Positions 1,362 to 26,593 of a stretch of 31,621 nucleotides of DNA are shown here, in pieces (position 1 is the first letter of the stretch; each line of letters opens with the position of its first letter). Under the pieces are notes generated by a model. It was given only the letters and a program-made list of their open reading frames with translations, was not told the DNA's origin and did no database searches. A program made the position numbers and the translations under genes. Source of the stretch: Seison nebaliae (taxonomy: Eukaryota); the NCBI GenBank assembly GCA_023231475.1, contig JALJEE010003034.1:62001-93621 (forward strand), written 5' to 3'.

Positions 1362-4300
1362 CTATTGAATGGCACAAGTTTCTTTCGGATGAGATTTCTT
1401 TCCTGGACCAACGAAAAAACCTTTTCTTCCTTTACCCCACGAATCGTGAATGATATCACCAAATCCATCTCTGACCTTATTGAAGAACATTTCACTCATA
1501 CCTGCTGCAATTTGTCTTCCGAAAGGATTATCTGCCAAACCTGGCATAAATTGCACCATAACGCCCGAAAGTAGACGGGCAGCAGGAGCAGCAAATTTAC
1601 TTTTCTCTTCTTCATCTCGATCACTTAATAAATTAGAGAAAGAGGAAATCAGTCCAGTTAAATCAAATGAATTATTATTATGGACTGTCTGAAGTGACAT
1701 ATCTTCATTTTCACCGTAAGTGGTATTGGCAAAACCTCCATAATTGTTATATCCCCATTGGGAATATTCTTGACCACCTTCATATGGATCTCCATAATTG
1801 TTACCTTGATTCAGACGTGGGACGGATTGAGTTAAAATTGAATCAAGTGCCTTCGACACTGTGGAATTATTGGATATATGTTTTTGTGCCATTGAATTGA
1901 AGAGATCTAAGATGTAAATTACGTAAATAAAATGAAATTGAGAGCATTAAAAGAATAACTTATTACTTGAAATCCTCCGTTCGAATTCATATATTGACCA
2001 CCGAATTGGGCCAACAATTGACGAAGGAGATCGTTGAGATTTACCTGATTCATCGGTTTCCATTTATTTTCATCTTCATATTTCTTCGAACATTAAACGG
2101 TGAATATTTGAAAAAAAAAAAAATTTCTCTAACCGGCAAATTTTCTGGGCCTGGATTATACGGTATCTTATATGTACCATTTGCTGGTTTTTCAGTAAAT
2201 AATCGTACCAAAAATTGACCATCTTGATTCTCATGATAAGTGGAAGGAATAAAGATGTAATATCCTGGATCTAATCGCAGACGTGCTGTTACCTTAAGGA
2301 AATGTGACAAAGAATAATTTTAACATATTTCTGTTCAAAACTTAACTTCTCTCATATTGATATAACTACCAGTAGATCCAACTTTCCTCAGTTGATGAGC
2401 AGATAACTTGACTGCTCCTTGTCCTTGTTCTGCTATTATTTGTTCGGCGACAGCATCATCTTTCACTTGATATGTTCTTAATTGAACATAATATTCTCCA
2501 CTATTTGCCATATCGGCTTGTTCCATTCGTCTTTGTCTTGAATGTTTCTGGATGAGTGACATTAAAATGGTACATTTGGGATCATGATCATTTTCGTCTG
2601 GATCTTCTACTTTCATCAAATATTGTGGATTAGTCCAAAACGAATCTAAAATTAATAATGATATGAAGAAATTGAAGAAATAAAAGGAACAATGAGAAGC
2701 ATTTCCACATCCACCAGCCGATAATCCATTTTTCCAATTTCCATGATACTGAGTTAAACACCAAGTTAAATCTTTCTGAAAAAGTAGAAGAAGTAAAACG
2801 AAATAGAAATTGATAGAGATTGAAATTCAAGTAACATCTCTTGCTTGAATTTCTTCGGAAAAAGCATCAGGTGTCAAATGAACAATTTGGAATCGTTGGA
2901 AGTTTTCCGTCCAATCTCGAAAATTCATCCTGTTAATCGGATTATAATAAATCATATCAAGGAAATGATTCTAACCAAAATTCACCATCATGATCTTTAA
3001 CCAATCCTAAATGTTGTTGACCTTCAGGGCTGACGTTATTCCACAAATGAGAACTTCAAAAATTTTTAATTTGAATTTAATTTCGGTTGGTTAAGAATTT
3101 TGATTTAAACTTGTCACTCCAATCACCATTCCATTCCACTTCATTACCCCACGGATTTCTCAATCTTAATAGTCTACATGTTCTTCCATGGATTTTGAAT
3201 CGTGCTACTCGTGTAATTGAGAAAGCATGACCTCGTACCAGTCCATTGCTCAATCGAGCTTCTTTCACATTAGGATCAGCCTAATTAATGATAAGAAAAG
3301 AATAAGTTAGAGACGATAAATTGAAGATTAACATCAATAGAACATCCCATTAATGAATTGAGTTTACTTGCTTGTAATATGATGTCGAAAAAGTTTCGTT
3401 TTGATCTAACATCCTTTAATTCAAAATTTTCTTGTACTCCACCTGTCATATCAGTCAAGGCATCAGCTGTTAATCCGCCTTCCAACGTTTCATAAGAACC
3501 GTTCAATTTTGCATAAGCTTTCTCCATCAAACATGGCCAAAATTCATTAGGTTGTTCCTTATTCTTGCAAAATATTACTTTGTTATTAACACATGGTAAC
3601 AAATCGTCGACGACGACATCTACCCATTCGCCAAAACGCCAAAATCTGAAGTGGAATATTCCTAACAACATTTAAAAATAACGATATAAAAATATGGTTT
3701 TACCTCCATATGATGGATCCTGATCAGGTAATCCTTGATCTTTTGGAACAATGTGAGTAAATATCTTCCCATTAGTCGCTACCACAGCTGCTCCGGCAAT
3801 AAACCAGCAGTTACCTAACATTCCTTGGTCGAGGTCCATACGACTCGGTCCACCAACAAAGAAGCTTGCATCTTGACGCATTTCCTAGAAAGTGAATGGA
3901 TATTATAATATTTTTTATTTATAACGATAAACTTGTGGTCGTTTCCATTCGATGGAATGGGGAGTTGATTTAGTGTAATATATAGAGGAGCCTTCCGGTG
4001 GGAATTCGGGATCGACAAATAAATTTTCTGAATTATAATATGGTTTCAATTGTTCATATACTTGTCCTTTATATGGTCTGACTTCTGAAGAGACACCATC
4101 AACCTGTAAAGGATTAAACATATCCGATTGCCCATAAGCAAGAGGTGTCTTAGTTTTTATACCGGCAGTTGGGTCATCTGTCACATCATCATCCGGTTCT
4201 GCCGTATCATCGGCTCCCACACCTCCTCGAGCTTCTACAACCGATTCATCGAAATCGAAGTCTTCATCTTCTCCATCGATATCGTCGTCATCATTCAAAT

Positions 4301-4676
4301 TAATCTCAAAATGTTCTTCTGGAGCTGGTGGATAATAGTCTGGATTTTCCCCATATCCTTCTTCTCCATAACTTCCGTCTCCTTGATCTCCCCCTTCATA
4401 TCCACTTCTTCCATAATTATCACCGTCTCCTCCATAACCATCTCCTCCCCCATTTTCGCCCCATTGTCGTCCTCTACCGCTATGATGATGACCATGATGA
4501 CCTCTTCCATGTCCACCTCTACCATGACGTCCGTGGCCGTGATGTTGATCAGTGAAATTTTGGAAGAAATCACCTACTTGTCCGGACCAATCGCCAATGT
4601 CAGCTTGTTGAACAAATCGTTGACCGAACTCTTGTCCAAATTGACGAAATTGATCGAAATTGTCTCTATTCCACAT
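1362..4676 (-). CDS. Atypical calpain: Gly/His-rich and acidic N-terminus, CysPc domain, domain III (CBSW), novel tail ending in CaaX; 11 exons
   Basis: Motifs FVDPEFPP, WKRP, DQGMLGNCW (catalytic Cys), GIFHFRFWRFGEWVDVVVDD, EFWPCLMEKAYAKLNGSYE, GLVRGHAFS (His), LRNPWG (Asn), AGGCGN, FWTNPQY, YINMREV, PGYYIFIPST. Ten GT-AG introns (first 3932-3885) join these to ORF 1362-1892, which ends ETCAIQ*. Confidence 0.93.
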
Positions 4677-5344
4677 GACTGTTCAATGAAACGAAACTCT
4701 TGGAAACGATAAATGACAAATGAAAATTTTAAATCGGTGACTATTTTTTGGAGTTTATACATCAAAAGAGAAAACATAGTTTGAAAACAATCATATTAAC
4801 GACCTTCAATCAATGACTCATTCATGTTCTTCACTGTCTCATTGAGAATTACATGGGAAACTTTGATTTTATTTTTCATTATGTTTTACCATTATGGTAA
4901 GCGATTTGTGATTAGGAGTATTAATACAACCAATTATCTTTAACCAAACTTCAAATTCAAAATACGGAAAATCATAGATATCTGCATATCTAACATATTG
5001 TAAGTAATCTCAATAATTGTCAGTACACTTATATTTAGTTATTCATTTTCCATCTTAATTTCATTTCATCATTAAAGTAATTTCCGATTAATTATATCAT
5101 AATTATTCAAATTAATAACTTTATAAACTCTTCAAATTTTTAAATAGTTTAAAATAATTGTTAAAACCTTGAAAGCTATGAGAGAAAACATTTCCAGATT
5201 TCGTATCTTCTCTTAGCCTAATTCAATAGAAAGGAAAAGAATTTAAAGAATTAGAAGGAAAGAATTTTCTTCGTTTTCGACAAATGTAAAGCTCTCAAAA
5301 ATTAATTAAGATTCACGAGTCTAAAATATATTAGATTAATATCA

Positions 5345-6119
5345 ATGGAGGAAGAAAATGATATCGAATTGGTAGACAACAGGAAGCGTCATGACGAAGA
5401 TATGGAAGTTGAGGAGAAGATAATTGAGAAAGATAATTCGGAGAAGAAGAAACAGACGAAAGTGCAATGGAGGAAAGTGGCAATTCCAAAGAACAGACGT
5501 TCTTATTTGAAAAAGAATTGGATGAAAATTATGGAGACATTAGTTAATCAATTGAATCTCCAAGTACGTTATAATACCGCCACTCATAATGTAGAAATGC
5601 GAGTTATATTTCTCTTCAAAAATTTCTTCTTCTAAAATATTTTATTTCGATTATCATAAAAGACATGTGAGAAAACGGATGATATTTCTATTATTCAGAA
5701 AGCATGTGATTTCATTAATGCATTCGCTCTCGGTTTTGAGATAGATGATGCGATTACTTTAATTCGTTTAGATGACTTATTTCTCGAATCATTTTATGTC
5801 ACTGACGGTTCTCACTTTTTTAATAATTTCAATTAACATTTCTTAACGTTTTTAATTAAAAGTCAAATACTTGAAAGGAGATAGTCTTTCAAGAGCGATT
5901 GGTCGTATCGCTGGTCATAATGGAAAGACGAAATATACTATCGAAAACGTGACAAAAACTAGAATTGTCGTAGCAGATTGTCGAATTCATATTCTGGGAA
6001 GTTATGAGAATATCGCAGTAGCAAAACGATCAATTTGTAATTTGATTATGGGATCTCCTCCCTCCAAAATTTACGGTCGATTGAGATCATTCGCTTCGAA
6101 AGGAATGAAATCATTTTAA
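5345..6119 (+). CDS. PNO1: PNO1/Dim2 KH-domain ribosome biogenesis factor; exons 5345-5602, 5663-5807, 5863-6119
   Basis: RKVAIPKNRRSYLKKNWMKI, QKACDFINAFALGFEIDDAITLIRLDDLFLESF, LKGDSLSRAIGRIAGHNGKTKYTIENVTKTRIVVAD..IHILGS..NI..AKRSICNLIMGSPPSKIYGRLR. Confidence 0.95.
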
Positions 6120-6199
6120 TTAAACGGAAATTCGAAATAAATTTTATTCTTTCGTCACAAAAATCTTTTTTACTTATAAGTTCGTTTAAAATAAATTGT

Positions 6200-9100
6200 C
6201 TATATTGTTACTCTGAAAACGCCACGAACATGTCCGTAAGAACCAGCTGGTGTGTTACTCGATTCCTTCCCAATAATCGTATCCGTAGAGTAGAAGACTT
6301 CATATTTATCATTCATATATCTTAAGGAGAAGTATTGGCGAGTTGCCAATGGATATCGTGCATCATTCAAGTGTACGACACATATATTAATCGACTGGAC
6401 TTTATTCAAATCAGGCAGATCGAGATGTTTCGCTAGAGACAATACGTCATAGATTTCCTGCTGAAACCCTCCCAATTGATAACAAATATTCAATCCAATT
6501 TGAACGACACATGAGAAGATGCCACTTGTCGCTGCATCCGTCGAGAACTTCTCCAATTTCTTATAAGTTAAATCAGGTATCACCAAAACTTTTTTCGTCG
6601 GACTGATAACCATATATCCACTGGAAAGTATTTTTGGTTCTTTCGAACCATCATAAATAAACTGTCTGTGTTGATTTCCATAGAATACGAAATTATGTAA
6701 ATGTAGTCCTGCATCAAACCAATTATTGACAGTTTTCAAATATTTAAAAATCACTAACCGTTCTTCGAATTGATTAATACATCTTCCGGTCCAGCATCTT
6801 TATCCGAACATGCAAACGCCAATTGAATATACATATATTTCTGAAGACCTTTGCATAAGTCGAAAGGTATTTCCAATTTAGCGAAGTCGGCTAAAATTGG
6901 AACGATGGGAAGTCCAGCTCTATTGAAATCGTTCTTAATTTATAGACCACAATATAAAAGAAAGAATAACATTGCTTGTAATTCATTACGGATGTCAATT
7001 GAGCATGCTTGTGGGGGAATAGTATTGATATCTTCCATCTTCTGAGTGATTTGCGCTTTCGTCAAATAAGTTCGGAAAACAGCATTCACTATTTGAACTG
7101 TGCCACCTATTAAGATATTAAGAAAATTTCAGAATAAATTGATGACGATCATTAAGAGGAAACCTTCACAATAAATAACTTCTGTTTCACCATAAGCTAT
7201 ATTCCGTCGATGTAATTCAGCAAGTTTCGATATTCCAATTTTGTATGTTTTACACATCTCGTAAAATTTAGTCAATTTATCTTTAACAACTTCCAGTTTT
7301 TTCGCTTCATACGAGATGTGCGAACCTAAATAATCGACATCTGTTCATAATTTATAGAAAGTTTATTAAAATGATAATTTTCATTAACATGGAGTTACTG
7401 CCGTATTCGGAGTCAGTGTACTAGTATCTGTACTTGTAACCTTTCCCAAAATATGGAGAACTTGATCTGAAAACGATTGAAGCAAATAATTGGAAAGGTT
7501 TATCATTTAACAAAAAAAACCGTAAAATTCCCCAGTTGTTTGTGCCAATTTTTTCGCTAATTTGTCATGTTCTGTAACCGAAGTTTTTAATACTAAAATC
7601 ATTCAATTTAAATAACTTTTTTGCAGATCGAAAATTTTTACTCGTTTGTTCAAAATGCTTTTAAAGAAATCTTCGCTATTTCCATCAGGACCGATAAATT
7701 TAAACATTGTGTCATTGATTTGTTTGATGGTGTCTTCTAATTCTATCAGATTCGACGAAAAATATTAGTTCATATTGAGATTTAATATATTATGAAACTT
7801 TTCCGAATTGTTTCCAGTTGACTATTCTGTTTATTCACATTGTTATCTAATGGACCTATGAGTTTTGCTATTCGAAACATATTCGAATGATTTGAGATCA
7901 ATAATAATTATATTAACTGTAATAGGTAATATTGTTTTGAGTATATGTTAATTGAATATTGTATATTTGGATTTCTAACAATATTTTCAATCAGAACATA
8001 GGGAAAAATTATTGAAACTTTCTTTCGCATCTAATATCAGGTCTTGAAGGCTTTTAGTTGTTTCGCATGTGGTGGAAAGATCAGATCCTACAGTTTAAAG
8101 AATTTTATTAAACAAATTCTTGAAAAATTAAGTTTGAACCAATTCCACTTTTTTGTAAACTCAAAAGTTTTCTTTCTCGTTTCTTGGTACGTAAAGCTGA
8201 AATTAAAAATATTTTAGAATTTCCATGAATTAAGGAATCAAACTTCGATCTAATTCAGGAATATTGTCTTCTAATTTCTTCATTGCTGTAATAATTGAAT
8301 TCGTTGTATTATCTATAAGGAAGATGAATAAGTATATTTAAGAAAGATTATCACAATATTAACAGATAAGTAAATTCTTTGCTTTAAATAGTTCCAACGC
8401 AATCTTTTGCTTCAACAAATCTATTTGAATTATTGAATTGAACAAATATTAATACAACGAGTGATAAATTAATGGATGAAACCTTTTACTATGTCTTTAA
8501 ATTGTTCGTCTATTTTCTGCCTGACAACAATTTGACCTCGAACTTTTGAAAAGTTTATGAGAAACAAACTGTTCTTCAACAACTAACTGAGATCGCTTTG
8601 ATTTAATAGTAGTGAATTATACGCATCAGTCATAGCTGGAATTGACAGATATGATTAGAACGATAATAAAAAAATGTTTTTGATTTTCAGTAAGATAACC
8701 TCCATACAAATTATTCGAATCAGCAATCGATTTCTGTGTTAATTGTTCCACTTCGTTTGATCGTTCTGTCCAATCAACTGGAATAAAAATTTAGTTTGAC
8801 TATCATTAATTAAACAAAAAAAATTTTAACTTGGATCAACTGATCCATCTTTCAGTGCTCGAAATTCATTTTTTCTTTTTTCAACCTCTAAAATTGGATC
8901 ATTTCTTTACACAATAAAATTTGGAAATCGAACCTGAAGTCAAATGTGCTACGTACATAAATGATTGAGCAATTTTATTATTAATTTGACTATTCTGTTC
9001 CACTAACGTAATGAAAATAGTCTAATGATATCAAGAAACGAATTGAAATTAACATATTTTAAATATGCTGTTCTTACCAAAGTTGAGTTGAGGAACAACG

Positions 9101-9875
9101 GCCGCATTTGTTACAACTTGATCGAGAGTTTTGTATTTCTCTGATAATGTTTGATATTCCGTCTGTTTAGCAGTATTTTCTTGATCTTTTTGTAGCCGTG
9201 GATGATATAGTTTTACTAGATTCTATCTAACCTAATGTTGTCAACATTTCATCATCAGTTTTATATTGTTGATCTTAAAGAAATCGAACAAGCTTTGTAG
9301 AACTTATCGAGATTAAAAGAAACTTAAAGAATTGTATACAGTTTCCACGTCGATTTTATCCTTGATCAAACTATTCATTGCTAAAAGTATTAACGAAAAT
9401 TAATATTAAAATCTAATGAAAATTTAAACTTTTTTCCAAATAATTTATATCACTAGACGCATTCCCCGTAAGTTCGTCCTTATCTAAGAATATAAGAAGA
9501 TTAATATCTCTCTTGCACAAAAAAAGAAGAAAAGAATATTAACAAAGACTTTGATATTGCATCTTCAACATTTTCAATTCATTTTCTAGAGATAAAACTT
9601 CTGAAATTATGGAATATTACTATGATTGAAGAAAATTTTAAATAAATAAATATACCATTATTCAATGTGGGTAATTGCCTGGCATGTCTTTTTACTTCGT
9701 TTGGTAATGTCTCATATTTCACTTTAATGAGAAAGATTACAGTTTAATTTCATTGACAATATTAACTCGAGTAAAATATCTTATCCAAACTGAGAAGGTC
9801 ATCGGGTAGCGACCAATATTTATTGAAATTGATAATTAGTATAAGGAAACAAAATAGAAGATTTAATGTCCTCAT
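6200..9875 (-). CDS. Cryptic 25-exon gene for an ~806-aa secreted protein: signal peptide, coiled coil, SUEL/Gal_Lectin-like domain, unknown C-terminal domain
   Basis: Exons (- strand): 9875-9767, 9721-9656, 9600-9544, 9483-9430, 9380-9324, 9273-9232, 9185-9078, 9002-8934, 8887-8831, 8777-8700, 8635-8588, 8542-8483, 8420-8364, 8312-8244, 8196-8140, 8087-8019, 7974-7918, 7867-7799, 7742-7617, 7571-7521, 7466-7389, 7340-7164, 7106-6971, 6919-6759, 6708-6200. All 24 introns are GT-AG, 44-75 nt, and give a stop-free 2421-nt frame. Starts MRTLNLLFCFLILIINFNKYWSLP; middle reads as heptads (EVLSLENELKMLKMQYQSL, KLEDTIKQINDTM); Cys domain IAYGETEVIYCEGGTVQIVNAVF...CSIDIRNELQ...FDLCKGLQKYMYIQLAFAC. 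Confidence 0.85.
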
Positions 9876-10699
9876 ATTTTCTTCTCAAAATTCTAATGGA
9901 AATGTCTCTTCAAATTACTAAACAAATTTATATAAGTTTGAATAAAAAATGAAAACTTTTAAGAACCTTACATAGACATTCTAATTGGGATAAATAAGAG
10001 GAATCGAAGAATATATGTGGAAGCAGTATAAAAAACTTTTCCGCTAATATGGAAAATTTTTTTTTTTTGAATTTTATTTTATGAGATTTATTCATTTAGT
10101 TAAAATTTATTTAGTATAAAAATTAATGTTCTTTATAATAAAGAAAACATGGAACAACATTCAAAAATGCGGGCGACAAGAAAACGGATGTAAATTAAGA
10201 GTCGTCATTCACGACCTAGTGATACGATCCTACACCACCCCAGGATCATCATATGCCTACCCTTATGTTGTCTTTCTAGGTTGATAATAATTTTTAACAG
10301 TGAGGATAACCAATCATCAACGGACACATAAAAAGAATAGGTAAATTACCTAAGGTAATTGATATAACAACAATTATAATCAGCAATCAACTATATTAAT
10401 ACTTTCACTACTTTTCTCTATCAAAGCAAACTTATCATTTACTGATAATAAATTCAAGGAATATCCACAAAGCGAGACCAAATTCTTGTGTTGTTCGGCG
10501 GTAATTTGCAGATAAAATATTAATATTATTATTTATTAATCACAGTGAGTGATAGAAAATTCCGATGAGGGATAAAATTAAGAAAAAATAGGGAAAAAAA
10601 CACATGTAACGGAAGTAAAAGAAATTAAAATATAAGTGAGAAGATGAAGGATGGGAATAGTCAAGACATAATGTTCAAGACATCACTCTAACGGACAAT

Positions 10700-11810
10700 C
10701 TAATAATCGTATAGAGTGTTGCCGTTTAAGAATTTTGAGAGCGCGGTATAATCATTCTGTTCGAGCATAATCCTGGCATCGGAGAGATGTGGACGAAACT
10801 TTGATGGAAGAAAACTAGATGAAGAAAAGTTAAGAATAAAATTTTGGAACTCAGAGGAAGTTGGTGAAAACGGTAGATCATAATAATGTGGAACATGTCC
10901 TAGAATCGACCGATCAGTTTTGAGCATCTCTACGATTAACAAATCCATTCCTTGAAACGACGGATTCGTCGAAACTCCATCCAAGATTCTTAAGATCTGA
11001 AAAGGAACCAGATCAGTGAGGGAAAAGAGAAACGCTCTATTGCAACGACGAAAACAACCGATCAAACAGCGTACAGCCCTGGAGAAGGATCTGTCCATCG
11101 CTAAGAAAGAGTTCGAAGAAGCCACGAAGATGGAATCCAATCCGAATAGTGGCTGAACTAAAATGGTGAAAGGATATTCTTACGTTAGTTCTTAAGGGAA
11201 AGAATTTGACACGATTAAGAAGGGAGAAATAAGTTCGACAAAACGATGATCGAATATTATCGAGAGAACTAGAAGAGAGCTTCCAAGAATCAAGATGGCC
11301 ACCAAGGAAACGGGTAGATGAAGACAATTTGATTGGGGAATCGGTGATTCGATTACCTGCCGTGGAAATTGTAACATTCTTCGACGGATTTACAGCAATG
11401 TGTAGATTCTTCAATGCTAATATGGTGAATGTTGATAGATCCAACAAAATTCGATTAGATGTGGAGAACAGCACAATATTGTCGGCATATGCATATGCTG
11501 CTGGAACTCGCAAGGAATTAACTTGAATAGAAGAACGAGAATTGATGAGATCGGTCCAAGAATCGAGCCTTGACGGACTCCACGGTTGACTTCAAAAGAT
11601 GAGGACTGTAGATTTTAAACCGAAACAGAACAGTATGACCGTGAACACAACGGTCTTATGAACGACAATATCGAATGATGAACCCCACGAGATCGTAGAG
11701 TATGGAGGGCAGGAAGCACATCGATGGAGTCGAATGCCCTTGATGAATATGAAGAGGACGGTTCGTTGTTCTGTGATAATAGATCAAAGATCTTAAAATA
11801 GCTATACATG
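10700..11810 (-). mobile_element. Degenerate, 5'-truncated non-LTR retrotransposon (LINE) reverse transcriptase relic
   Basis: Frameshifted pieces on - strand: SRAFDSID...LRSRGVHHSILSFI (KAFD motif), FEVNRGVRQGSILGP (~11555-11600), AYADNIVLFS (YADD decayed to YADN), LHIAVNPSK, TRFLGGHLD. Higher GC than flanks, no introns. Confidence 0.9.
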
Positions 11811-12269
11811 GATGTTATTATTTTAGTTTTAAAAATTGCTCTTTTAACAACAACATGAGCTCCTGACCGCTCTTTTTTTGCCCATGCCTGCTATATAGTA
11901 TATGTTATAATACTAATGACGAAAAAATTAGAAGGATGGAAGAACGAATGATAAATAATGGAAGAAAAATTAAGGAATATTAATTATAATATTTAGTAAG
12001 GAATTGAAAGTTAATCTCAATAATTATTACCGTTCACATTAAAATTAACTCATAAGTGACTCTTATACCACTTTGTCCAGCTAGCTTCTCATGAAGTTAG
12101 CGAAGTTGAATATGAATTAAGATGTTTAGTAAGGATGCTTAGAATTTGAGAAAACTGAATTTCGGTAACTTTAAATTAGATTATTTATGGCAATTAGACC
12201 TTGTTATTATATCAAATAGAGTTTCTATAACAATATAATTATTACGTAATAGCATTAAGAATACGTCCA

Positions 12270-15200
12270 ATGTTAAAAGAAGAGGCTCTAGCAGCCATAA
12301 GAGATATCGTTAATATTGACTCCGCTGAGAATAGTCCAGATGATAAAAGTCGACTTGTCTTTATGATAGACATTAATGGACTTAGCAAACTTGGAATTGT
12401 TTCTAATGTGCTTATTGACACGATGTTTAAGGAATTGATTCTTATTTTCAGAGAATTAAATTCGGAAGATAAAGGTTAACTAATTCTTATAACACACATT
12501 TGTTCCACACATATGAAATAGTTCAACTGATTGTTATAATTTTTAGTAGCAATAAAGGTTTCTGTTATGATGAAGTGGGTAAAAGATTGCACACCGAACT
12601 AGACGACATATTGAATGATAACAAAACGGATTCGAAACTCCATATACATATTCCGTATGAGGGGGACGATCGTATCCAATGTCAGGTGGAAGCAACTAAT
12701 GAAAGTTGAAACATTATTGAAATTCTTAAAAATTATCTTTACTATTCTCCAGTTAAACGGACCGATGAAGGAATTGTCGTTATTAAAATTCAACTAATTC
12801 TTGACGGTGGTAAAGGCACTTGGGATTGTTTTGAAAAACATGCAAATGCTGCTAAAAAATTACCCAACAGTTTTCGAATATTAATTTCTGGTACGAATCG
12901 AGTAGTGAAACTGATTGAGAATTTTGTATTGTTATCTTTCATTGTTTTATAATAACATCATGAACTTCCATTTTCCGATTATGAATAACTATAGTGGTCA
13001 GATAAATCATGAAACGGAACCACAAGAAGTCTTTTCGGAATTAAAGAAGAACCAAAAAATCAAAGATTTCCAGCATAATTGTTTCATCGCTGATTGGAAA
13101 GAGGACAAAGGCATCGAAGATTCTCTTATTGGTTGTTTTGCAAATATCATCGACAGTGTCGTTGAAAAAGAATGTAATAAAGACAAGGAAAATAGGAAAT
13201 TTCTTTATAAACTATACGTCGTTTATATGATGAGAGTTGCCGAAGGTAAACTTATGGGAATGGATCAATTCACATCATTTAGTAATGCGAAAGATTCGCT
13301 TAAACCAGAAGATTTGAATGTTTATGCAATATATTCTATTGAGAATAAGAATGCTAATTTATTACGTACATGTATCGATTACGATATGATCAAACTGAAA
13401 GAATTGGATGTTGATAAATTGGAAGAAGTTAAATTTGACGCCATACAACCGAATGAAATTTACAGAAATTTCCTCAAGGCAAGTTATCTGGAAAATGTGG
13501 ATAAAATACCATTACCTGGTACTAAAAATTTTTACATGTTGTACTGTTATTGTGTCATTCATACATGTAATGATTTGAATGGTACGAATCTTGAAAATTC
13601 ATTAAGTTATGTTGTTTGGGAGAATAGTGAGAATCCGATTCACTATGCATTATTAACAGCTTCATTGTTAAGGATGTTTGTGAAGAATGAAAAAATTGTA
13701 AGAAAAAATAATCAGAAAGTTGTACTAGACGTAGCTAACGACTGGGAAAAATTAGCGATACGTATCTTTCGTCAAGTCACACATAAATATGATCAATTGA
13801 ATGAAGATTTATTCATTTTGCCAATTGAAGAAGATATCGGTTTAATTATTCGAATATCTCATTTAAAAATTCTTATATCTCTTGAAAAAAAACTACAGAT
13901 ATTACCATACCAACATTAGTAGAGAATGGAGAATGTCAAATGTTCGCAAGTGACGAACCAATGCAGAATTATATCGATGCAATATGGTATCCACCATCAT
14001 ATCAATTACCCGAGAATTCGTCGATGATTATCTTCGAAGTTTCCGTTTTTGTTATCCTAATTCTAATCCTAAATTGTTTAGCTTTTCTTTTGTGCCATTT
14101 TGGTATTCCCTTACTGGATTTTAAAGAAACGTAAACGATTCAAAGATAATAAGATAACTATTCGGGAATTCTTTTCATCCCCGTGTATCACTTATATACA
14201 TCGAGTAGTTAATATTTCGTATATTTCATGTAACTTCTTATTCAATTCATAGTTGGCATATATAGTTCATCTCTCAATTTTCACATATTGGTTGGTTGAA
14301 TATAAGAAAAAGTTATGGTATTTCGAAATATACTCTTTCGGTTTCCATCTCGCTCAAATACTTACCGAACTCGTTCAAACCAAACTATGCGTACCGTCAC
14401 GCTCTGTTACATTTTATTCTTATGGTAAGTCTTCAAATGTTGTTATTTAATAGTGTTGTAGAGTTTCAAGATGTTCAATTAATCTCAAAAAATATTTAGC
14501 AGAAGATTGGAATAGAATCGATCTTATCATAATCATTTTTACGATTGTGGCTTTTATTATTCGAGTTGTCGAGCAATTCTCTCCCATGAATACTTATGTC
14601 ATTCACGTCACTAAACTTTTCTACATCACTGGAGAGACTTTATTATTTGCGAGAATGTTAAACTTCCTAGAAACATTTGAAACAATTGGACCAAAAGTTT
14701 TCGCCATAAAAAAAATGGTTTTATTTCAGTCAATTTAATTGTTAATTGAAATAATTGTTATAGATCGGTAACGTGTTGGGAACATTGCCTGTATTCTTCA
14801 GCATCATTATTGCTGGCAGTGTTGGATTTCAATCATATCTATTTCATAGAGATGTTTTCCGCTTCAAAATCATTACCAGAAATTTATTTAGTTCATTCAC
14901 ATATATGTTGGGTGAATATGAAGATTTTGAGAAGATTGAAGGTTTTTCATCTGTTCATAATTTAATTTCTAATATTTTGATGTGGAAAATAGGAAATATT
15001 GAGAATTGTTATGAAAGAGATGAATATCTGAAACTGATTAATAAGAATAATGTTGATGAACCATACCTATGTCCTAAAAAATATGACCAATTCCATTGGC
15101 CTTACTTTCTACTATGTATCTACGTGGTAATAAGCTCAATTATCTTAGTTAATCTTATCGTCGCTTTTTTTACTAGTGCATTCGAATCAGTCGAGGTTTC

Positions 15201-15530
15201 ATTTTTTTGTTTTTTTCGTCTCGTTTATCAAAAAAAATTCTTTATTTAATTCACTAGCAAGAAGCTCGAATAACTTATGGATATCGCCGTTATTTCTTTG
15301 TGAAAGAATTCAAGGATATGTATTGTGGAATTATTCCTCCTATTGACACCTTAGTCACCATATATTGTTTCCTAAGAGACTGTCGAAAAAACAGGATATC
15401 TCCCAATGTGGAAAAAACTAAAACTGAAGTGCTGAAAAAATTATTTGGATATGAAAAGATGTTATATCTGAATAAAGAGCAAACTAGTCAAATTCAACAG
15501 ATTCAGGAAGTTTTCGATTTTCGAAATTAG
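12270..15530 (+). CDS. Divergent TRPM-like cation channel, ~11 exons
   Basis: Spliced motifs: SLOG-like IQLILDGGKGT...ILISGTNR; MHR4-like ENPIHYALLTASLLR...DWEKLAIRIF; FASDEPMQNYIDAIW; EFFSSPCITY; YLAEDWNRIDLIII (S3); RMLNFLETFETIGPKVFAIKKM (S4-S5); pore FTYMLGEY with a Cys pair (ENCYE...YLCP); ILVNLIVAFF (S6); TRP-box region YGYRRY; IIPP. The exact 3' end could involve one more intron. Confidence 0.88.
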
Positions 15531-15630
15531 TTTAACTTTTTTAATTAAAATTTTCGTTGAAACAACAAATTTTCCAATGATTAAAACAAAATTATTATTA
15601 TTATTTTCATTATTAAAACTGAATATAAAA

Positions 15631-17513
<1,883 letters not shown>

Positions 17514-18239
17514 TCTGATTGATTGAGATTTCTTTGAGATTGAATGTTCAATATCTTTCAATAAAAATATTGGAACATTGGCAAAAGAAGAATGGATGAA
17601 TTATATGACGCCATCAAATCGACCAGAATGACAACTATGTAACGGAATAATAGGTAATGGGAATTGTTTATGAAATTAAATGATAACCGAACGGATAGAA
17701 CTCTTTCAACAACTTTCGAACAAATGAATGACGAACTAGGTATAGAACTATTAATTATTCTTATTAAGACATTCCGTCAATCTACTACTGACATAATCCT
17801 TCATCTCCAAATAATTTCTCCGTTATATGATTACCTGACTATTGTCGCTTAATATCTTTTATGTAAATCGTATTCCACTCTTACGGATATATGGGGATAA
17901 CATAATGATGGCGAATGGGTGAATCCTTCGAGAGACTCGTGTTTAATGAATTCATGTCAGATATCGACGTCCAATTGTTTTCGAGGAACTAAAACAACAA
18001 CCCTATCATCATTACAAAGAAGAAATGAGAGATTTTTCACTTTTTTTCTTGTTGAGTTTTCCGATTCCGATGAAGTTTTTATGTGATCTTTATTTTCACT
18101 AGTACTGTCATCAAGGATGTTAATCCTTCGTTCAAACCGAAGTAATCGAAAGAAAAAGAGATTTTTTTCAGATTTCATTAAAAATAAAGGTGAAAGAAGA
18201 AGAAGAAGAAGAAAAAGAAGAAGTTATTATTTAATCAAT

Positions 18240-21200
18240 TTAATGAGATTTCATCAAAATCTTCCAATTGATATAGACGGGACTGTCTAGTTCGTTTAAC
18301 CTTCTTTGCTTCTTATTCCGTTTTGGAGGTAATTTCTCTGAAGTTAGAGATGTCGACAACGATGACGATGAAGATGAGAAAGATGAGGAGACAGATGATG
18401 AAGATGGGGATGATGATAAAGATGATTCGGTCGGTATAGAAGCTTCCTTAAGAGTTCGCGATGATTCCGAGTCATATTTTAATACTTCTCTCGATTTCTT
18501 ACTTTCTGATCGTGATGTGGATGAATTAATAATTTTCATTCCTTCTAATAAGCCCGATCTATTCACAAATTGTTCTTGTTTTATTTTCGATGGCAAATTA
18601 TTGTCATTCGATTCTCTTTCAGGAACGGGCGGAGGAAATGTATAATTATTCGTCATCATATTATACATATCAGGTGTTGAAGTGGCGACTGGTGCTGGTA
18701 TATATGGAACATATGTCGTAAATGAATTTAATGAACAATGTCCGTTATATGGAGAATTAGAGAGAATTTGTGACATGTTATTCGTTTGGATTGGCGTATT
18801 TGAATTATCGTTGAATGATGGAAATGTAATATTATTATTATTATTATTATTAATATTGTTGGTATTGTTGTTGTTTGTGAGATTTACTGGAAGATTTTGG
18901 TTCGTTGAGTTAATATTAGTATTCGAATTCTCATCGTTATTATTATTGTGATAATCGAGTGGATTTTTCGACATATTCTTCAAAGTATCATTCAACGTGT
19001 TATTGAATGAGGAAATATTATCGAACAACATTGATCGTCGATTGAAATGATTGACAAGGTCTTGGACATTCGATAAATGAGATTTATCAATATTATTTTC
19101 ATGAGACAGTTTCTTATGACTTCCATCAAGCACTACCGTTTTCTCAATCTTCTCTTGATAATACTTACGCCACCAATCAGCTAAAATATAATTCTGAATA
19201 ATATTATAATCCAAATTATAAGATTCAACATTCTTTGTCTGATGATGTTGAAAATGTCGGTTACTGGTCGATGCTGATGATGATGAAGATGGTGATTTCA
19301 ACGTATAATTTTTGAAACAATCTGTCGATTTCGATCTGTTATTTTTCAGTTTAAGTTTTTGTGAATGACTCAAACAAAAATCGACAGATTTATTTCGTTT
19401 CTTCGTCGATTTATTACAAAGACAATTAGAAATCTCTTGTACATGATATTGAGGAGAATAAGATTGAAGTGATGAATTTCCGTCAGATGAATTTATTAGA
19501 TTATTCTGATGATACATTAATTTGTTTAGGATAGAAAGATATAAACGATCCATACTCTTTCTATTGAAATTACGATGAGTTGTAAAATAGCCGTTAATAA
19601 CGAATGGATAGACATATGGATAATTTCTCTTATATGAAGAGAAATCGACAGAATAATTACTTTGAATCCATGAAGTATCATCTTGATAATTACTCTTCTC
19701 TAATTTATTCGTTTCATAATCTGTAAAAATTCCACTGTCGTATGATTCCATCGGTGTGATAGTAGTGGCGGTAGCAGTTTTGGTTAAAGGAGAAAATGAT
19801 TTGAACAGTTTCTTATCTGTCTCAAACGGATGAGAAAATATATCATAATTTGACGCTGTATGTGCACTCACATTCAAATCATTATTTGATGACTGTTTCC
19901 TTCTAACATTATTTTTCAGATAATAATTCGAATTATATGATCGATTTCTTTTCGGATACAAATTTCGTACATTTCCATAAAGATATGACGTTGCTCTTAT
20001 TCCATTATTATTCGGTATATTTCCAATACCATCCAAATGATAAGGTGTGGAATGAGATCGCAATAACGTTGAATGACTTTTGGTCGAATAACGATATCGT
20101 CGATGTTGTTGATGAGATTGTTCGAGTGCTAATTCTTTCCCCGTCAAATAATGATAAGCTGTAGTGGATGATGATCGATTACTCATTTTTAAATTTGTTC
20201 CTTGATTAAAGTTATTCCTATTCGAATTGTTTTTTAGATTTTGTTGAACGGAATTAACATAATAATTTTCAGGTAAAAACGAATCTTTATAATATTCCCA
20301 ATATTTTGGTTGGAAATCGAAATTATTAAAAGAATTCATTGAAATCGAATTAGAAGTAGATACTTGATTCTCATAATAATTTTCTGTTGGCACTATTTGA
20401 TTATTATTGACATTTGACATATGATTCTCATAAGGAAGAGGAATGACATCATCGAATAATTCATTTGTATAATAATCGGGTAATCGATCAACATTCCATT
20501 CCTCAACTAATTTATTATTATCATTTCGAGTTTCATAACGATTCGATCTATTTCGTCTTCGATGTAAATGATTTGATTTATTTTTTATTTTCTTTCTCTT
20601 ATTCTCAGTTTGTTGAGTCCAGAACCAACTCAATTGATTTTGCCACTGTTCATATGACTGAATGGGAACGAAACCAAAATTGTTTTTCGGTAATTCTTCA
20701 TCATCTAAAATTATGAAATATGAAAGAGAAAGTGTTGAAGAAAGAAAAGTTATAAACTTTTGAAAAAATCATTATATTGATCGTTCGTATTCATCCATTT
20801 CTTTAATTTCTTATGTTTTCGACTTCGATGTTTGGGTCGAACGGATGAAGGTTGAAGAGGTTGTTGAATATGATAATCAATGAAAGAAGTCCCATTATTC
20901 TTTAGGGGATAACTGTTAGGATAATCAATCGATTTCGTTTGAGGTTTATTCATGATCGATTGATATTGCTCTCGAGATTTTGAATCGAACAAATTGTTGA
21001 GGTGGTTGGACGGATTAATTGATTGAATCATACGAGGATTATGACGGAAGTAATTGAAAAAAGGAATTGATGCAGATAAATAATCAAAAGGCCGTTTGTA
21101 ACTAATGAGAATACTGGATACTGAATCTATTGTTCTTGAATTGAGTTCTCTATCTGTCCATTGCATCAAATTCGATAAAAGTGAATTGGATGACAACGAC

Positions 21201-23272
21201 TTCCTTGAAATCATATTGTTCAGTTTCGATTGTTTACGGAAGTTTGAACGAGATTTCCGATGGGATTTCGATTTCTCTCTCATTTCTAATCTTTCCTCCA
21301 TTTCAACTGAATTCTTATTTTTCTTTGTTGGCGACGAAGTTTTCCTTTTGTTATTTTTCATAATCCCTTTCGATTTACTTATCGATCTGGATCGATTTAT
21401 CTCCTTGTAAATACTCCATTCTTCAGTTGTAATCGATGAAGTTTTCGATGTTGCCGTTTCATTTCCATTTTCTTTCATATTCTTTTTCATTTTCTCTTTT
21501 TCAATCGATCGCAATTTTTCTATTTTACTGTCAATTATCTTTGAACTTAAATTCAATGCAACTGACAACAAAGACGTTGTTGCATCAGTAGGAGTCGAAC
21601 TGGATGTCGTATTCATTGTAATCGGTTGTATTGTCGATGATATTCGAGATGAAGAAGTTGTCGCTGTCGTCACTGTCATTTTTGATGAGGTGACACTCAA
21701 AGACGTTGATGAGATATTTTTCTCAATTCCAACTTCTTCACTTAATTCATATGATATCTTTCTTGGTCTAATTGAATTGTTGAATGATATCCGATTCTTT
21801 GGTGTTGTTGTGGTGGTTGACGAGATGAGTTCAGTTAAAATCGAATTATCTTTTGTTATTATATCATCAATCTTATGAATATTCGTCGAGTCGGTAGTAA
21901 TTCGTTGAATGGATTCTGATGCGACTGATAAACTTTCAGTTTTTGTTGTTGCAATACTACAAATTGGAGTATCTTCCATTTCACTCTCGTCATTGTGGAA
22001 AACGTCGTCGCTTAATCTTGATACATTGTGAGGACTGATCTCTGAGTCCAAATCTTCACTTGTATCAGTTGTTTCATTTTCGTTCGAATCATTAAAATCA
22101 AATGTTTTCACTTCCAATTTATGAACACTAATATTTGGATCTGTTAAATCTTTAACATCATTTCGTGATATAAATGATGAATCGATTTTCGTACTCCGAT
22201 TCTCCATATAACTACAATTACTTATACAATTATTATTATTATTCTGATTTGGATTAGTCGATAATGAAGAAATTGTTGTTGTTGTTGTTGCTGTGGTCAT
22301 TTCGACAGATTCACTATTTATATTCGGTTCATCAATAATTGAATCGTCATTCAATTCAGGAGATAATATTGTTCGAACATTTGAATTAGTCGATCGCTCA
22401 TCAGAAAAATTTGATAAGAACTTCTTCTTTTCCAGATCCGTTATATGAGTAAAGATACTTGGGGTTGATGTTGATTGAAAATTGTGAAATGGTATTTGAT
22501 AGTTCGATGTAGTCGAATTAAAAGGATGAGTAATTTGTGTGGGATAATAATTTGACGGACGAATTTCCTTAACATTATTTCCTAAATTGCCAATTCTCAA
22601 ATTGTTATATCGATGTATTAACGGATCTGCTGCATTCATTCTTTCCCCACAATTCTTTAATGGATAATCATATTCTGTTAATGGTAATTTCATGGGAATA
22701 TTTTTCTCAATAATTTCTTCATTGTTCTCTCCTTCATTATTTGAATTAGTTAGAAATAATTTCGCATCAAAAAAACTACTTTCCATTTCCTTGTTCGCTT
22801 CCACAACTACTTTCTCCTCTTTTTCGTTATCCAATCGATTATTGTTCTGCTCAAATTTCCTCTTATAATTCTCATTATTATTCACCCTAAATTGCTGGTT
22901 TAACGAATTATTGAATGATCGTGGATTAATTAGATGGTTATCATCTGGTGGTTGAATATTGCAAATGTTATTTACATTTACTCTTGAACATTTATCCAAG
23001 GAGTTCATTTCAATTTGTTCTCTCACATTCGAGTTCAAATTGTCATTCCCCGTTGTGAGTTGAGACGATTGTTTCTCATAAACATTCGTATTATATGAAT
23101 TGTGAACATTCAATCGTTCAATTTTATCGACAACTATTGCTTTCTCTTTTTCTCTTTCACCAGAAATTGATGGTATTCTGATATTCTCTTTCTTCTCATC
23201 TTTCCCATTCGTATAAATATATGTGGTAACTTTGATGCAATTTAACTTTTCTCCCAAAAGTTTATATTTCAT
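18240..23272 (-). CDS. Giant Asn/Ser/Thr-rich low-complexity protein (~1660 aa) from two very long exons; function unknown
   Basis: ORFs 20750-23371 and 18240-20633 join in frame through a 53-nt GTTTAT...TTTTAG phase-1 intron (20757-20705). First ATG in frame is at 23272 (MKYKLLGEK). No recognisable folded domain. It may continue into small exons at ~17600-18140. Confidence 0.7.
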
Positions 23273-24031
23273 TTTCACTTCTTTTATGCCACAAATAATT
23301 CTTAATTGTATTTTCGATATTCTAAATATAATTTCGTAAGAAGAAAAAAAATGAAGAATAAAATGTTTCAAGAAGAAATAAGAATATCTGTGAGGAAATT
23401 ATTTAATAATGAAGAAAATTGACCAATTGTTATTAAAATTAATCTTATTCGTCCACAATATTTATTGGATCAATAATATGATTTCTATTGTTTCTTAACA
23501 TTTCTCTATCATCACATTCGAACACAAGATACATAAATGAGACAATTTTCATCCACCAAATTATCGTCAATTCAATTAGCCTCATTCTTTTCAAAATTAT
23601 TTTAGCTAATTGTTCAATGTTATTTCCTGATCATACTCTTATCTAGTAAGGAAGTAACAAGGAGCTTTCTTTCAATCGAACAAGACAATCGGATATATAC
23701 ATTATTCACATTAACAATTCTCCAATAATGATAAGAATGTGACAAGAAATCACAAGACAAATAATTTTCAAAACGAAAACTATCTTTCCCAATTACCATT
23801 AAATTAATTGTTATCTATTTATTTTTTAGAGAAAGGCATTCACTTTTTGAAGAAGAATTGAGAACCATTTTATTTGAAAATTTATAGGAAAATGGTAAAA
23901 GAATTTTTATAAAATTTTTGTCGATTTTGAGGAATTACATAATGAAAATTAAAAAGAAATTAAAAGAAAATTTTAAGAAATAAAATGATAATCAATTGAA
24001 AATTTTTTTTTCAACTAAATTCTTTTCATTG

Positions 24032-26593
24032 TTATTCATTCACTAACAGTTTAGCAGCTTCATCTGGCATTGTTATATAAAACGGTTCCTCATTTGACAT
24101 AGTTAGAAATTTTGCTTTGAAACTTATATCACCATTTGCTGTCAGTTTTTTCATAATATCAATAAACTTATCCTTCTTTTTAAATTCTTTCAATTTCACA
24201 TCAACAATTTGAACTTTATAAGCAATGGGTTGAATACGTTCCAATTCTTTCGGTAATTCGACAAAGTTCTCTTTTACGACAGATAATCGTGCGACATTCC
24301 CATAATCCAGAAAGAAGACCGTTGCCACACCATAACGTAGATTGACATTTTTAATGAAACATCGATAGAATAATTTATCGCCTGGGTAAAGAGCTAAACA
24401 ATAAAGACCGTAATGCAATTCGACTGGTTTACAATTTTTCTCTTCTCTCGTGATAATTTCGTTAATTTTGTTGAGTAAATTGGTATGAAAATCAAATTGA
24501 ACGTACATAGTTGAAAAATCGACATATTCCACTGGATACATTTCATAATATACATCTAACTTAATCATTACAGGTAAATTGTTTTGAGCAATTTCTAATA
24601 ATTCTATTTCATCAACATCTGCTTCATTCAACGATGTATCTCCCATAAATTTCTCTAGAACATTTTCCACTTTCTCCAATTTCACAGGAACTGATTCATT
24701 TAGATCAGAAATTTTTTCGTTCAAACTTTCACTCCAACGTTGATAAGTGGGAAGTTGTTCATTCAAATTATTCAACTTCTCTAAATTATTCTCGAGCTTT
24801 ATTGAACCTTGAACTATATCCAACTTGTTTCCATGTTCATCAATATTTTCCTCAGCAAACGGTTCCTTATCATCCAAACTGAGTCCATCAAAATTATTCC
24901 ACACATGTTGAACATCAATTTCTACCGGTTTTGTCGATTCATCATCTAATTTCTCTCTTAATAATTTATCCGAAGAATCAGTACAAGTCATTCGTAAATT
25001 AATATCGTTTGGTCCACTTCTTATCAGACTTTCAACATGCATCATCTCATCTGGTTTTTTAGGTGATGGTTCTTTCTCATCAGGAACAGATTCGTCTAAT
25101 CGGAATGATACTCTCTTCTTTAATTTCTGAATGGGTCTCTGATCGTGAGTGACGAGGAGTGGTCGTCGTATTCCACTAAGATTCTGTTGTATTGGTATAC
25201 CATCATCAGGATCGACAATCGGAAGAATATGGGACGTTTCCACTAATTTAGAATGATCTTTTATTATCGAATAATCTAATCTACTTGATTGATCGTGATT
25301 GTTGTTGTTCTGATTGGAATAAGGAATATTTTCTTTTGTATTTAAATCTTCCCAATCCTTTTCCTCATTCAAAGTGTAGACTTTGAAATATTTATCTACT
25401 GTCGCTTTCGGGATTTCTTCCAATACTTCATCGTTGACTTCTATGTCATCAAATTCGTATTGTGAAATTGACTCTTCATCCTCCTCTTGACGATGAGCGA
25501 AAGATGAAAAACTATTCGATGTAGGAATTTTTTTGGAAGGAACGATTATTTGGTTGAGATTAGATGTGGAAGCTTTTGATAAATTTTCAATATTTTTCTG
25601 TTCATTCATTATTGATTTATCAATTTCACTTAAACTTTTTTGATTATTACAATTTATGTTCATTTGACCGTTGGTCATCAATTTCTCTGAATTCTCATAT
25701 TGACCAGTGGTCAAGTCACATTTAGGTGATCGTTCCTGATTGTTCCGTTTATAATAACTACTATTATTCATTGACACAATACTAGTGGACTTAATTGACA
25801 ATGCACAATCTTCCTGACTCTCATTATCATCAACTTGTTGATGATTTTCCTTATCAGCTCTTTCTTTAACTACCGTATCATTTACAGGAGAATTATTGAG
25901 ACATTTATCTCCTTTTTCTTTAGGAGGCCAACCTTTATCCAAAATACTGAAATAAATAGATTCTCCTGGTAATTTAGGTTTCGATTGGTATAAAGAAATC
26001 CAAGTTGCTGTAAATCCTTTTTTAGTCAAATCTTGAATCACCGAACGACCATCAACAATGATTTCATACATATTCAATTTATTCACAATATTCTTACCAC
26101 GATAATTGATCTTCACAATTTTCTTTCCTACAAAATCCATAAAAAATTCATTAGCTTCATCACTCCATTCGATTTCGTTCTTTGGAATTGCATTGAACAG
26201 ACAACCAATTATTACCGGTAAACGACCGATGTGACTAAAACAGCCTCGTAATGGACGTAAATTGTCCTCATGAACATGAATCGATTGTTGGACGTCGATC
26301 AATTCCACTTGATAATTTGTGGAATCGAGTTGTAATTCTATTCTTCCTCTTTGATATTTCAATCTATTTTTGGTGCGAACGACAACCAAATCATCTGGAG
26401 AGTATATTCGCTTAGATTGGTCACTTTTCCCTGTTGGTAACACATTTACTCTTGGAATCCATGCTGATAATGCTTCACTTGCATGATAAACACTCACTGG
26501 TCGAAGAGTAAAGAGACTAGGACCGCTACCTCCAATCAACACATACTCATCTCCGTCTTCAACTGAATTTGGATTATACCCATGTCTGATCAT
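24032..26593 (-). CDS. Tudor-domain protein (TDRD-like): two extended Tudor domains joined by a long acidic/disordered linker; intronless ORF
   Basis: C-terminal Tudor: VEYVDFSTMYVQ...GLYCLALYPGDKLFYRCFIK...ATVFFLDYGN...LPKELERIQPIAYKV. N-terminal Tudor: VSVYHASEALSAWI...YQRGRIE...YQVELIDVQQ...NLRPL...F...GCLFNAIP...WSDEANEFF. Confidence 0.88.
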   Translation of the reverse strand: MIRHGYNPNSVEDGDEYVLIGGSGPSLFTLRPVSVYHASEALSAWIPRVNVLPTGKSDQSKRIYSPDDLVVVRTKNRLKYQRGRIELQLDSTNYQVELIDVQQSIHVHEDNLRPLRGCFSHIGRLPVIIGCLFNAIPKNEIEWSDEANEFFMDFVGKKIVKINYRGKNIVNKLNMYEIIVDGRSVIQDLTKKGFTATWISLYQSKPKLPGESIYFSILDKGWPPKEKGDKCLNNSPVNDTVVKERADKENHQQVDDNESQEDCALSIKSTSIVSMNNSSYYKRNNQERSPKCDLTTGQYENSEKLMTNGQMNINCNNQKSLSEIDKSIMNEQKNIENLSKASTSNLNQIIVPSKKIPTSNSFSSFAHRQEEDEESISQYEFDDIEVNDEVLEEIPKATVDKYFKVYTLNEEKDWEDLNTKENIPYSNQNNNNHDQSSRLDYSIIKDHSKLVETSHILPIVDPDDGIPIQQNLSGIRRPLLVTHDQRPIQKLKKRVSFRLDESVPDEKEPSPKKPDEMMHVESLIRSGPNDINLRMTCTDSSDKLLREKLDDESTKPVEIDVQHVWNNFDGLSLDDKEPFAEENIDEHGNKLDIVQGSIKLENNLEKLNNLNEQLPTYQRWSESLNEKISDLNESVPVKLEKVENVLEKFMGDTSLNEADVDEIELLEIAQNNLPVMIKLDVYYEMYPVEYVDFSTMYVQFDFHTNLLNKINEIITREEKNCKPVELHYGLYCLALYPGDKLFYRCFIKNVNLRYGVATVFFLDYGNVARLSVVKENFVELPKELERIQPIAYKVQIVDVKLKEFKKKDKFIDIMKKLTANGDISFKAKFLTMSNEEPFYITMPDEAAKLLVNE

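What the first reader, a model, noticed from the sequence alone, without database searches (positions are those of the whole stretch)
6200..9875. Hidden micro-exon cassette gene: 21 consecutive symmetric phase-1 exons building a secreted coiled-coil/lectin protein
Seen: the ~2.8 kb ORF desert at 7045-9900 is a gene. Exons 2-22 (66,57,54,57,42,108,69,57,78,48,60,57,69,57,69,57,69,126,51,78,177 nt) are all multiples of 3 and flanked by phase-1 introns; 23 of 24 introns are phase 1, whereas the neighbouring calpain, PNO1 and TRPM genes mix phases. The product has a signal peptide, a long heptad-like region, a Thr-rich hinge, a SUEL-like Cys domain and a ~170-aa unrecognised C-terminal domain. Known: phase-1 symmetric exons are typical of shuffled extracellular modules, and schistosome micro-exon genes (MEGs) generate secreted-protein variants by skipping symmetric exons. 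Inference: any subset of these cassettes could be skipped in frame, giving a combinatorial, variable-length stalk carrying a lectin-like head (adhesive, host-interface or immune-type protein). I do not recognise this family.
Basis: partly seen in the sequence, partly recalled or inferred. Interest (0 to 1): 0.9.

Follow-up and report, generated by a model that had tools for sequence, protein, structure and literature searches.

The report
Orphan rotifer rod protein, phase-1 exons
A real, already-annotated gene of the crustacean-dwelling rotifer Seison nebaliae has 21 short frame-preserving exons in a row and likely encodes a secreted rod-shaped protein with a decayed lectin-like head; the exon pattern likely records old internal duplication, and mix-and-match splicing remains untested.

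Summary
The gene is real and the exon model is right. A phase-blind parser returns all 24 annotated introns, and a diverged second copy in DNA runs is conserved exon by exon, mostly at silent sites. 23 of 24 introns are phase 1 (P about 1e-9 against neighbours). The product has a hydrophobic N-terminus, a long heptad stalk, a Ser/Thr hinge, a weakly supported degenerate SUEL-like domain and an unassigned last domain; no homologue was found. The schistosome micro-exon reading is not supported: 0 of 21 exons are 36 nt or shorter, introns are 44-64 nt like the neighbours', and 14 of 21 exons would break heptad register if skipped singly. Exon lengths alternate 57/69 nt (pairs of 126 nt, six heptads), which points to old tandem duplication of a two-exon unit. 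Splicing itself was not observed, so skipping, above all of exon pairs, is not excluded.

The parts
6200..9875 (-). Whole gene, 25 exons, 814 aa = NCBI KAI3378813.1 / SNEBB_000812 [Seison nebaliae], hypothetical protein
   Evidence: blind parse
9767..9875 (-). Exon 1 (109 nt, aa 1-36): hydrophobic N-terminus, likely signal peptide; a second in-frame donor lies at 9791
   Evidence: hydropathy (no SignalP available); second copy matches 9763-9805
9054..9721 (-).
   Evidence: heptad autocorrelation; second copy matches exons 5 and 7
8364..9002 (-). Exons 8-13, phase 1-1, aa 173-295: 9002-8934, 8887-8831, 8777-8700, 8635-8588, 8542-8483, 8420-8364; pairs 8+9 and 10+11 sum to 126 nt
   Evidence: second copy matches exon 9
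7521..8312 (-). Exons 14-20, phase 1-1, aa 296-461: 8312-8244, 8196-8140, 8087-8019, 7974-7918, 7867-7799, 7742-7617, 7571-7521; lengths 69,57,69,57,69,126,51; one heptad register throughout
   Evidence: second copy matches exons 14, 16, 18, 19 with mostly silent changes
7389..7466 (-). Exon 21 (78 nt, aa 462-487): end of stalk and Ser/Thr-rich hinge (45% S+T in aa 471-490)
7164..7340 (-). Exon 22 (177 nt, aa 488-546): last predicted helix plus first strand and Cys545 of the SUEL-like domain
6799..7206 (-). Degenerate SUEL/rhamnose-binding-lectin-like domain, aa about 533-632, over exons 22, 23 (7106-6971) and 24 (6919-6759); four of eight cysteines
   Evidence: no Pfam or PDB hit
6200..6708 (-). 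Exon 25 (509 nt, aa 646-814 and stop): unassigned C-terminal domain with three cysteines
   Evidence: low-confidence model

Best explanation
This is a single orphan gene of Seison nebaliae, likely spliced mainly as one full-length form, predicted to encode a secreted coiled-coil rod that carries a degenerate SUEL-like domain and an unassigned end domain at its tip; the run of phase-1 exons likely comes from old tandem duplication of a 57+69-nt exon pair. Mechanism, by step: (shown) 25-exon structure, 23 of 24 phase-1 introns, conserved reading frame, heptad periodicity; (inferred) the N-terminus is a signal peptide, whose phase-1 intron set the phase; (inferred) a 1-1 exon pair of 42 codons, six heptads, was copied repeatedly, which lengthens the rod without breaking frame or register; (inferred) the chains oligomerise into a rod of up to about 70 nm (about 490 residues at the recalled 0.15 nm each) that holds clustered heads away from a surface; (inferred) the head binds a protein or glycan partner but likely not rhamnose or galactose in the canonical way; (guess) an extracellular linker of body coat, cement or egg attachment on the crustacean host.
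For: Gene. Second, less abundant copy about 85% alike in DNA runs: 649 of 701 matched bases lie in exons (62% expected), 13 of 20 piece ends sit within 7 nt outside an exon edge (mean 1.2, maximum 8 in 20,000 random placements), 19 of 24 listed differences at third codon positions (P 5.5e-6), 18 of 22 codons silent; three contigs that bridge an unmatched exon keep nearly the same spacing (-16, +16, +1 nt). Stalk: autocorrelation peaks at 7, 14, 21, 28, 35, 42, 49, 63 (z 2.4-4.1); one register in 12 of 13 windows over aa 265-460; five N-glycosylation sequons, all in the stalk. Duplication: 7 of 20 adjacent exon pairs sum to 126 nt (2.6 expected, P 0.003); 22 equal-length exon pairs (7.8 or 11.8 expected under two nulls, P 0.001 and 0.011); exon 19 is 126 nt, as a fused pair would be. 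SUEL-like: a profile of 95 SUEL domains scores aa 516-645 at 12.8 bits, reached by 0 of 5000 shuffles; the N-terminal half alone lands on the same place (z 4.2). Against canonical sugar binding: Glu and Tyr of the site read Tyr537 and Phe557, and Lys619 reads Thr in one contig of the second copy. Runs of symmetric exons by tandem duplication are described for collagens and other proteins (PMC3632108, PMC4838654).
Against: No splice junction was observed; 'mainly one form' is an inference. No sequence repeat survives between exons or 42-aa units (best exon pair z 3.9 of 210 pairs; exon-anchored register -0.33 against -0.37 for a 7-residue shift), so duplication rests on lengths alone. The silent-change count covers only 24 of roughly 96 differing letters and only exons alike enough to be laid; exons 6, 17 and 23 lay inside bridging contigs yet were not matched at 80%, so parts may evolve fast. 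AlphaFold models are unusable (pLDDT 35-37). Secretion rests on hydropathy of about 1.4-1.5.
Confidence: 0.6

Rival explanations
1. Regulated skipping of adjacent exon pairs (126 nt, six heptads) tunes stalk length in steps of about 6 nm.
For: All 21 exons are frame-neutral; 7 of 20 adjacent pairs sum to 126 nt, which keeps frame and register; skipped exons in animals are enriched for 3n lengths (PMC6142364).
Against: Introns are 44-64 nt like the neighbours', whereas skipping goes with short exons between long introns in most species examined (PMC6142364, which names exceptions). The periodicity is already explained by duplication.
Confidence: 0.1
2. Schistosome-type combinatorial micro-exon gene: any subset of exons is skipped to diversify a host-facing protein.
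For: Hydrophobic N-terminus, symmetric exons, orphan status, host-associated animal.
Against: 0 of 21 exons are 36 nt or shorter; 14 of 21 shift the heptad by 2 or 5, the shifts that break or strain coiled coils (PMC4786415); exon 22 holds part of the head; no paralogue; listed changes mostly silent.
Confidence: 0.05
3. The N-terminal segment is an uncleaved anchor, making a type II membrane protein with an extracellular stalk and head.
For: Stalk-and-head layout with the head at the C-terminus; no cleavage-site predictor was run.
Against: Only three residues precede the hydrophobic stretch, which is short and of modest hydropathy.
Confidence: 0.15
4. The last domain is a very diverged TNF/C1q jelly-roll, making a trimeric C1qDC- or TNF-like protein.
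For: By eye, recalled strand motifs fall in order; four of six strand blocks of a TRAIL-like domain land where I expected them. Coiled-coil plus C1q proteins are known in bivalves (PMC8878817).
Against: The block score equals shuffles (z -0.03, 1023 of 2000 as high); a profile of 90 C1q-like domains scores below shuffles; no Pfam or PDB hit; aa 726-740 looks helical. Only one TNF domain was on hand, so the test is weak.
Confidence: 0.1

Closest known systems
Schistosome micro-exon genes (MEGs)
   Same: Hydrophobic leader, run of symmetric exons, lineage-restricted, host-associated animal.
   Different: MEG exons are 36 bp or shorter, the proteins small, the genes in families with shown skipping (PMC8293314, PMC4015677). 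Here exons are 42-177 nt, the protein is 814 aa with a register-constrained coiled coil, no paralogue was found and skipping is not shown.
SUEL / rhamnose-binding lectin domain (Pfam PF02140)
   Same: Collinear match to the N-terminal strands and to the DPC/KY motif region; cysteines 2, 7 and 8 kept, and Asp, Gly, Lys of the sugar site.
   Different: Four of eight cysteines (90 of 95 natural domains have all eight); YGR motif and the sugar-binding Glu lost; below every library threshold; joined to a long coiled coil. Rotifer secreted SUEL lectins described so far are short with no accessory domain (PMC8878817, which did not screen Seison).
Stalk-and-head recognition proteins (bivalve coiled-coil C1qDC proteins; collectins and CD23/DC-SIGN-type lectins, recalled)
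   Same: Leader, oligomerising helical stalk, C-terminal recognition head.
   Different: No C1q or C-type lectin domain detected; stalk of about 490 aa; two-part head of degenerate SUEL-like plus unassigned domain. A functional analogy only.
Genes grown by tandem duplication of symmetric exons (collagens and others)
   Same: Long same-phase run with recurring exon lengths tied to a structural repeat.
   Different: Here the unit is an exon pair matching six heptads, and sequence similarity between units is no longer detectable.

Membership tests
Micro-exon genes (MEG) | Coding sequence made mainly of exons of 36 bp or shorter | tested here: not met
   0 of 21 symmetric exons; 3 of 21 are 51 nt or shorter; median 60. 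Limit from PMC8293314.
Micro-exon genes (MEG) | Symmetric exons | tested here: met
   21 consecutive 1-1 exons.
Micro-exon genes (MEG) | Signal peptide or membrane anchor | tested here: inconclusive
   Hydrophobic aa 4-24, mean 1.4-1.5; no predictor available.
Micro-exon genes (MEG) | Many isoforms by exon skipping | not testable with these tools
   Needs RNA reads over the junctions.
SUEL/RBL domain | Profile match at the curated Pfam threshold | tested here: not met
   No PF02140 hit; own profile 12.8 bits, above 5000 of 5000 shuffles.
SUEL/RBL domain | Eight cysteines paired 1-3, 2-8, 4-7, 5-6 | tested here: not met
   Four cysteines (545, 581, 614, 629); 2, 7, 8 kept in both alignments, 4 in hhalign only; losses would be pairwise under the topology of PMC3269628.
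SUEL/RBL domain | YGR and DPC...KY motifs | tested here: inconclusive
   YGR not kept; D, C, G, K, Y of the second motif kept, P and T not.
SUEL/RBL domain | Sugar-binding Glu, Tyr, Asn, Asp, Gly, Lys | tested here: not met
   Asp612, Gly616, Lys619 kept; Glu and Tyr replaced; Asn not alignable; Lys619 reads Thr in one low-depth contig.
SUEL/RBL domain | Alpha/beta RBL fold | tested here: inconclusive
   Region unfolded in a pLDDT 25-33 single-sequence model.
TNF/C1q superfamily | Sequence match of the last domain | tested here: inconclusive
   No signal above shuffles with one TNF domain or 90 C1q-like domains; reference set too thin to exclude.
TNF/C1q superfamily | Trimeric jelly-roll fold | tested here: inconclusive
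   Model pLDDT 37; best structural Z 5.3, unrelated rows tied.
Coiled-coil stalk | Long-range heptad periodicity | tested here: met

The most novel reading that the evidence does not exclude
In a genome of 50-nt introns, this gene is a molecular ruler: regulated skipping of 126-nt exon pairs changes a secreted coiled-coil stalk in six-heptad steps of about 6 nm, setting how far a new kind of two-domain head reaches towards the crustacean host.
Probability: 0.1. Interest if true: 0.75.

Novelty: new variant of a known kind. Interest (0 to 1): 0.33.

Why it matters
As it stands it is an orphan, likely extracellular protein from a poorly known animal that lives on a crustacean, with an undescribed head and a clear case of exon pairs matching a coiled-coil register. 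It is a candidate for host attachment or surface coat and a good target for a fold once an orthologue exists. If pairwise skipping were shown, it would be a length-tuning device in a genome whose short introns should disfavour skipping.

Tried and rejected
RNA test: no RNA holder listed; run X1, guessed as RNA, looked like DNA when laid and no splice joint was listed; this is no evidence on expression or skipping. No whole genome was held, so no genome-wide paralogue search or phase background. Homologue searches: only the protein itself (1.84 billion representatives, last domain) added one phage-tail repeat protein, P0002, judged chance; no relative in JGI metagenomes. Pfam and PDB sequence searches gave only coiled-coil-type noise or nothing. 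ESM Atlas gave no answer. Single-sequence AlphaFold models had pLDDT 35-37; their fold searches had no match at E 0.001 and best Z 5.3, with acetyl-CoA carboxylase central domain on top, not taken as meaningful. Trimer prediction of aa 640-814 gave no verdict. TNF/C1q idea not supported; motif scans gave one true TNF domain in all. Sequence repeats between exons not found. Short 19-28-nt matches from high-depth contigs were treated as chance hits from elsewhere and left out; 43 and 30 table rows were not shown. DeMarco 2010 was not held; MEG facts come from two reviews. Literature searches found nothing describing this gene type; the locus tag itself was not searched.

Full report
What was checked. 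A chain of GT-AG introns with exactly the stated exon lengths exists and completes to 806 aa. A search with the last exon returned one protein, SNEBB_000812 of the rotifer Seison nebaliae, 814 aa, 100% identical (accession KAI3378813.1, cluster of one). So the gene is annotated, as a hypothetical protein. How that annotation was made I did not establish.

Is the phase-1 run real? A parser with no phase term returned the 24 annotated introns at three weightings. No open parse exists without phase-1 introns upstream of 7150, and 0 of 5 shuffled regions can be parsed. One spot is soft: at exons 10-11 a parse with a phase-0 intron scores 1.3 lower. Neighbours (PNO1, calpain, a TRPM-like channel, a trypsin/EGF gene; Pfam support) give phases 11/11/8 of 30, so 23 of 24 has P 1.5e-9.

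Independent support from a second copy. The DNA runs hold low-depth contigs (depth 2-5 against 13-28) about 85% alike over this gene and over PNO1. That fits the second, rarer lineage reported in pooled S. nebaliae (PMC8351084, passages seen); a match at PNO1 too argues against a paralogue. Of ten pieces of 31 nt or more, 649 of 701 bases lie in exons, 13 of 20 ends sit at exon edges (random mean 1.2, maximum 8 of 20), and 19 of 24 listed differences are at third positions, 18 of 22 codons silent. Limits: only 24 of roughly 96 differences were listed by place, single contigs under depth 5 may carry errors, and exons too diverged to be laid are missing (6, 17, 23 lay within bridging contigs unmatched). 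The three bridges keep spacing within 16 nt, so no exon was gained or lost there.

The protein. Residues 4-24 are hydrophobic; five N-glycosylation sequons lie in the stalk; aa 471-490 are 45% Ser/Thr. The stalk shows autocorrelation at 7, 14, 21, 28, 35, 42, 49 and 63 and one register in 12 of 13 windows across aa 265-460. No homologue or paralogue was found.

The SUEL-like domain. Pfam and PDB give nothing. I fetched SUEL domains by a motif scan (20 of 20 aligned members confirmed as PF02140) and a profile search (best 120 of 554 hits used). A profile of 95 non-redundant domains scores aa 516-645 at 12.8 bits, reached by 0 of 5000 shuffles; a global-profile test gave z 4.6 (1 of 2000). An earlier profile of 18 gave z 5.1, and its N-terminal part alone chose the same place, but the score was 7 against 114-204 for true domains; hhalign gave E 0.12. 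Cysteines 2, 7 and 8 are kept, 4 depends on the aligner, and 1, 3, 5, 6 are gone, which would be pairwise loss under the published topology (PMC3269628, passages; PMC10817417, passages). Of six sugar-binding residues three are kept, and one of them reads Thr in the second copy. I put SUEL ancestry at about 70% and canonical rhamnose/galactose binding at under 20%.

The last domain is unassigned. A TNF/C1q resemblance that I saw by eye from recalled motifs did not exceed shuffles.

Why the exons are all 1-1. Lengths are not random: 57 nt occurs six times and 69 nt four times; 7 of 20 adjacent pairs sum to 126 nt, six heptads (P 0.003), and exon 19 is itself 126 nt. Repeated copying of a two-exon unit keeps both frame and register and yields a same-phase run with no need for skipping; this route is described for collagens and other proteins (PMC3632108, PMC4838654, passages). 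Sequence similarity between units has gone, so this is inferred from lengths.

Why free skipping is unlikely. Schistosome micro-exons are 36 bp or shorter (PMC8293314, PMC4015677, passages); here 0 of 21 are. Only 2 of 21 exons keep the heptad when removed alone; 8 would act as a 2-residue and 6 as a 5-residue insertion, which break or strain coiled coils (PMC4786415, passages). Exon 22 holds the first strand of the head. Introns are 44-64 nt like the neighbours', while skipping usually goes with long flanking introns, with exceptions (PMC6142364, passages). None of this is a direct test. Skipping of pairs would keep frame and register and is the novel reading left open.

Comparison and verdict. 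It works, most likely, like a stalk-and-head extracellular protein such as bivalve coiled-coil C1qDC proteins (PMC8878817, passages), but is a member of none of the families tested. The role in attachment or coat is a guess from the animal's life on Nebalia; an unchecked scan note reports another candidate adhesive in this genome. All papers were seen as search listings and keyword passages only; no supplements were opened, and those of PMC8351084 could bear on annotation and isoforms. Interest 0.33.

Noticed in passing
window, introns of five genes (2050-17990): Splice donors are mostly GTT: 23 of 24 in this gene and 26 of 30 in four neighbours, where a purine at +3 is the usual animal consensus (recalled). 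Possibly a Seison-wide donor consensus with a matching change in U1 snRNA.
   Followed up: partly
window 9791/9767 and 9078/9054 (minus): Two pairs of in-frame alternative donors, each 24 nt apart, after exons 1 and 7; candidates for small alternative 5' splicing.
   Followed up: no
window 5445-9805: Low-depth contigs about 85% alike over PNO1 and this gene in DNA runs X1-X5, likely a second lineage of the same species.
   Followed up: yes
window 10700-11800 (minus): Broken reverse-transcriptase-like frames (weak RVT_1, E 0.044) about 0.8 kb upstream of the gene's start; likely a decayed non-LTR element.
   Followed up: no
window 6119-6200: PNO1 (+) and this gene (-) end tail to tail with 80 nt between stop codons; their 3' UTRs likely overlap.
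   Followed up: no
window 3933-4676 (minus): The calpain has a long Gly/His-rich then acidic N-terminal extension of about 190 aa in its first exon.
   Followed up: no
window 18240-26623 (minus): Three long intron-free frames (842, 882, 863 aa), two low-complexity Asn/Ser/Thr-rich and one with Tudor domains.
   Followed up: no
L118:3-806 (+), IMG/VR contig of 127,879 bases: An AT-rich viral contig encodes a TNF-family ligand closest to TRAIL (Pfam TNF E 2.5e-32; PDB TRAIL E 3.5e-54).
   Followed up: partly
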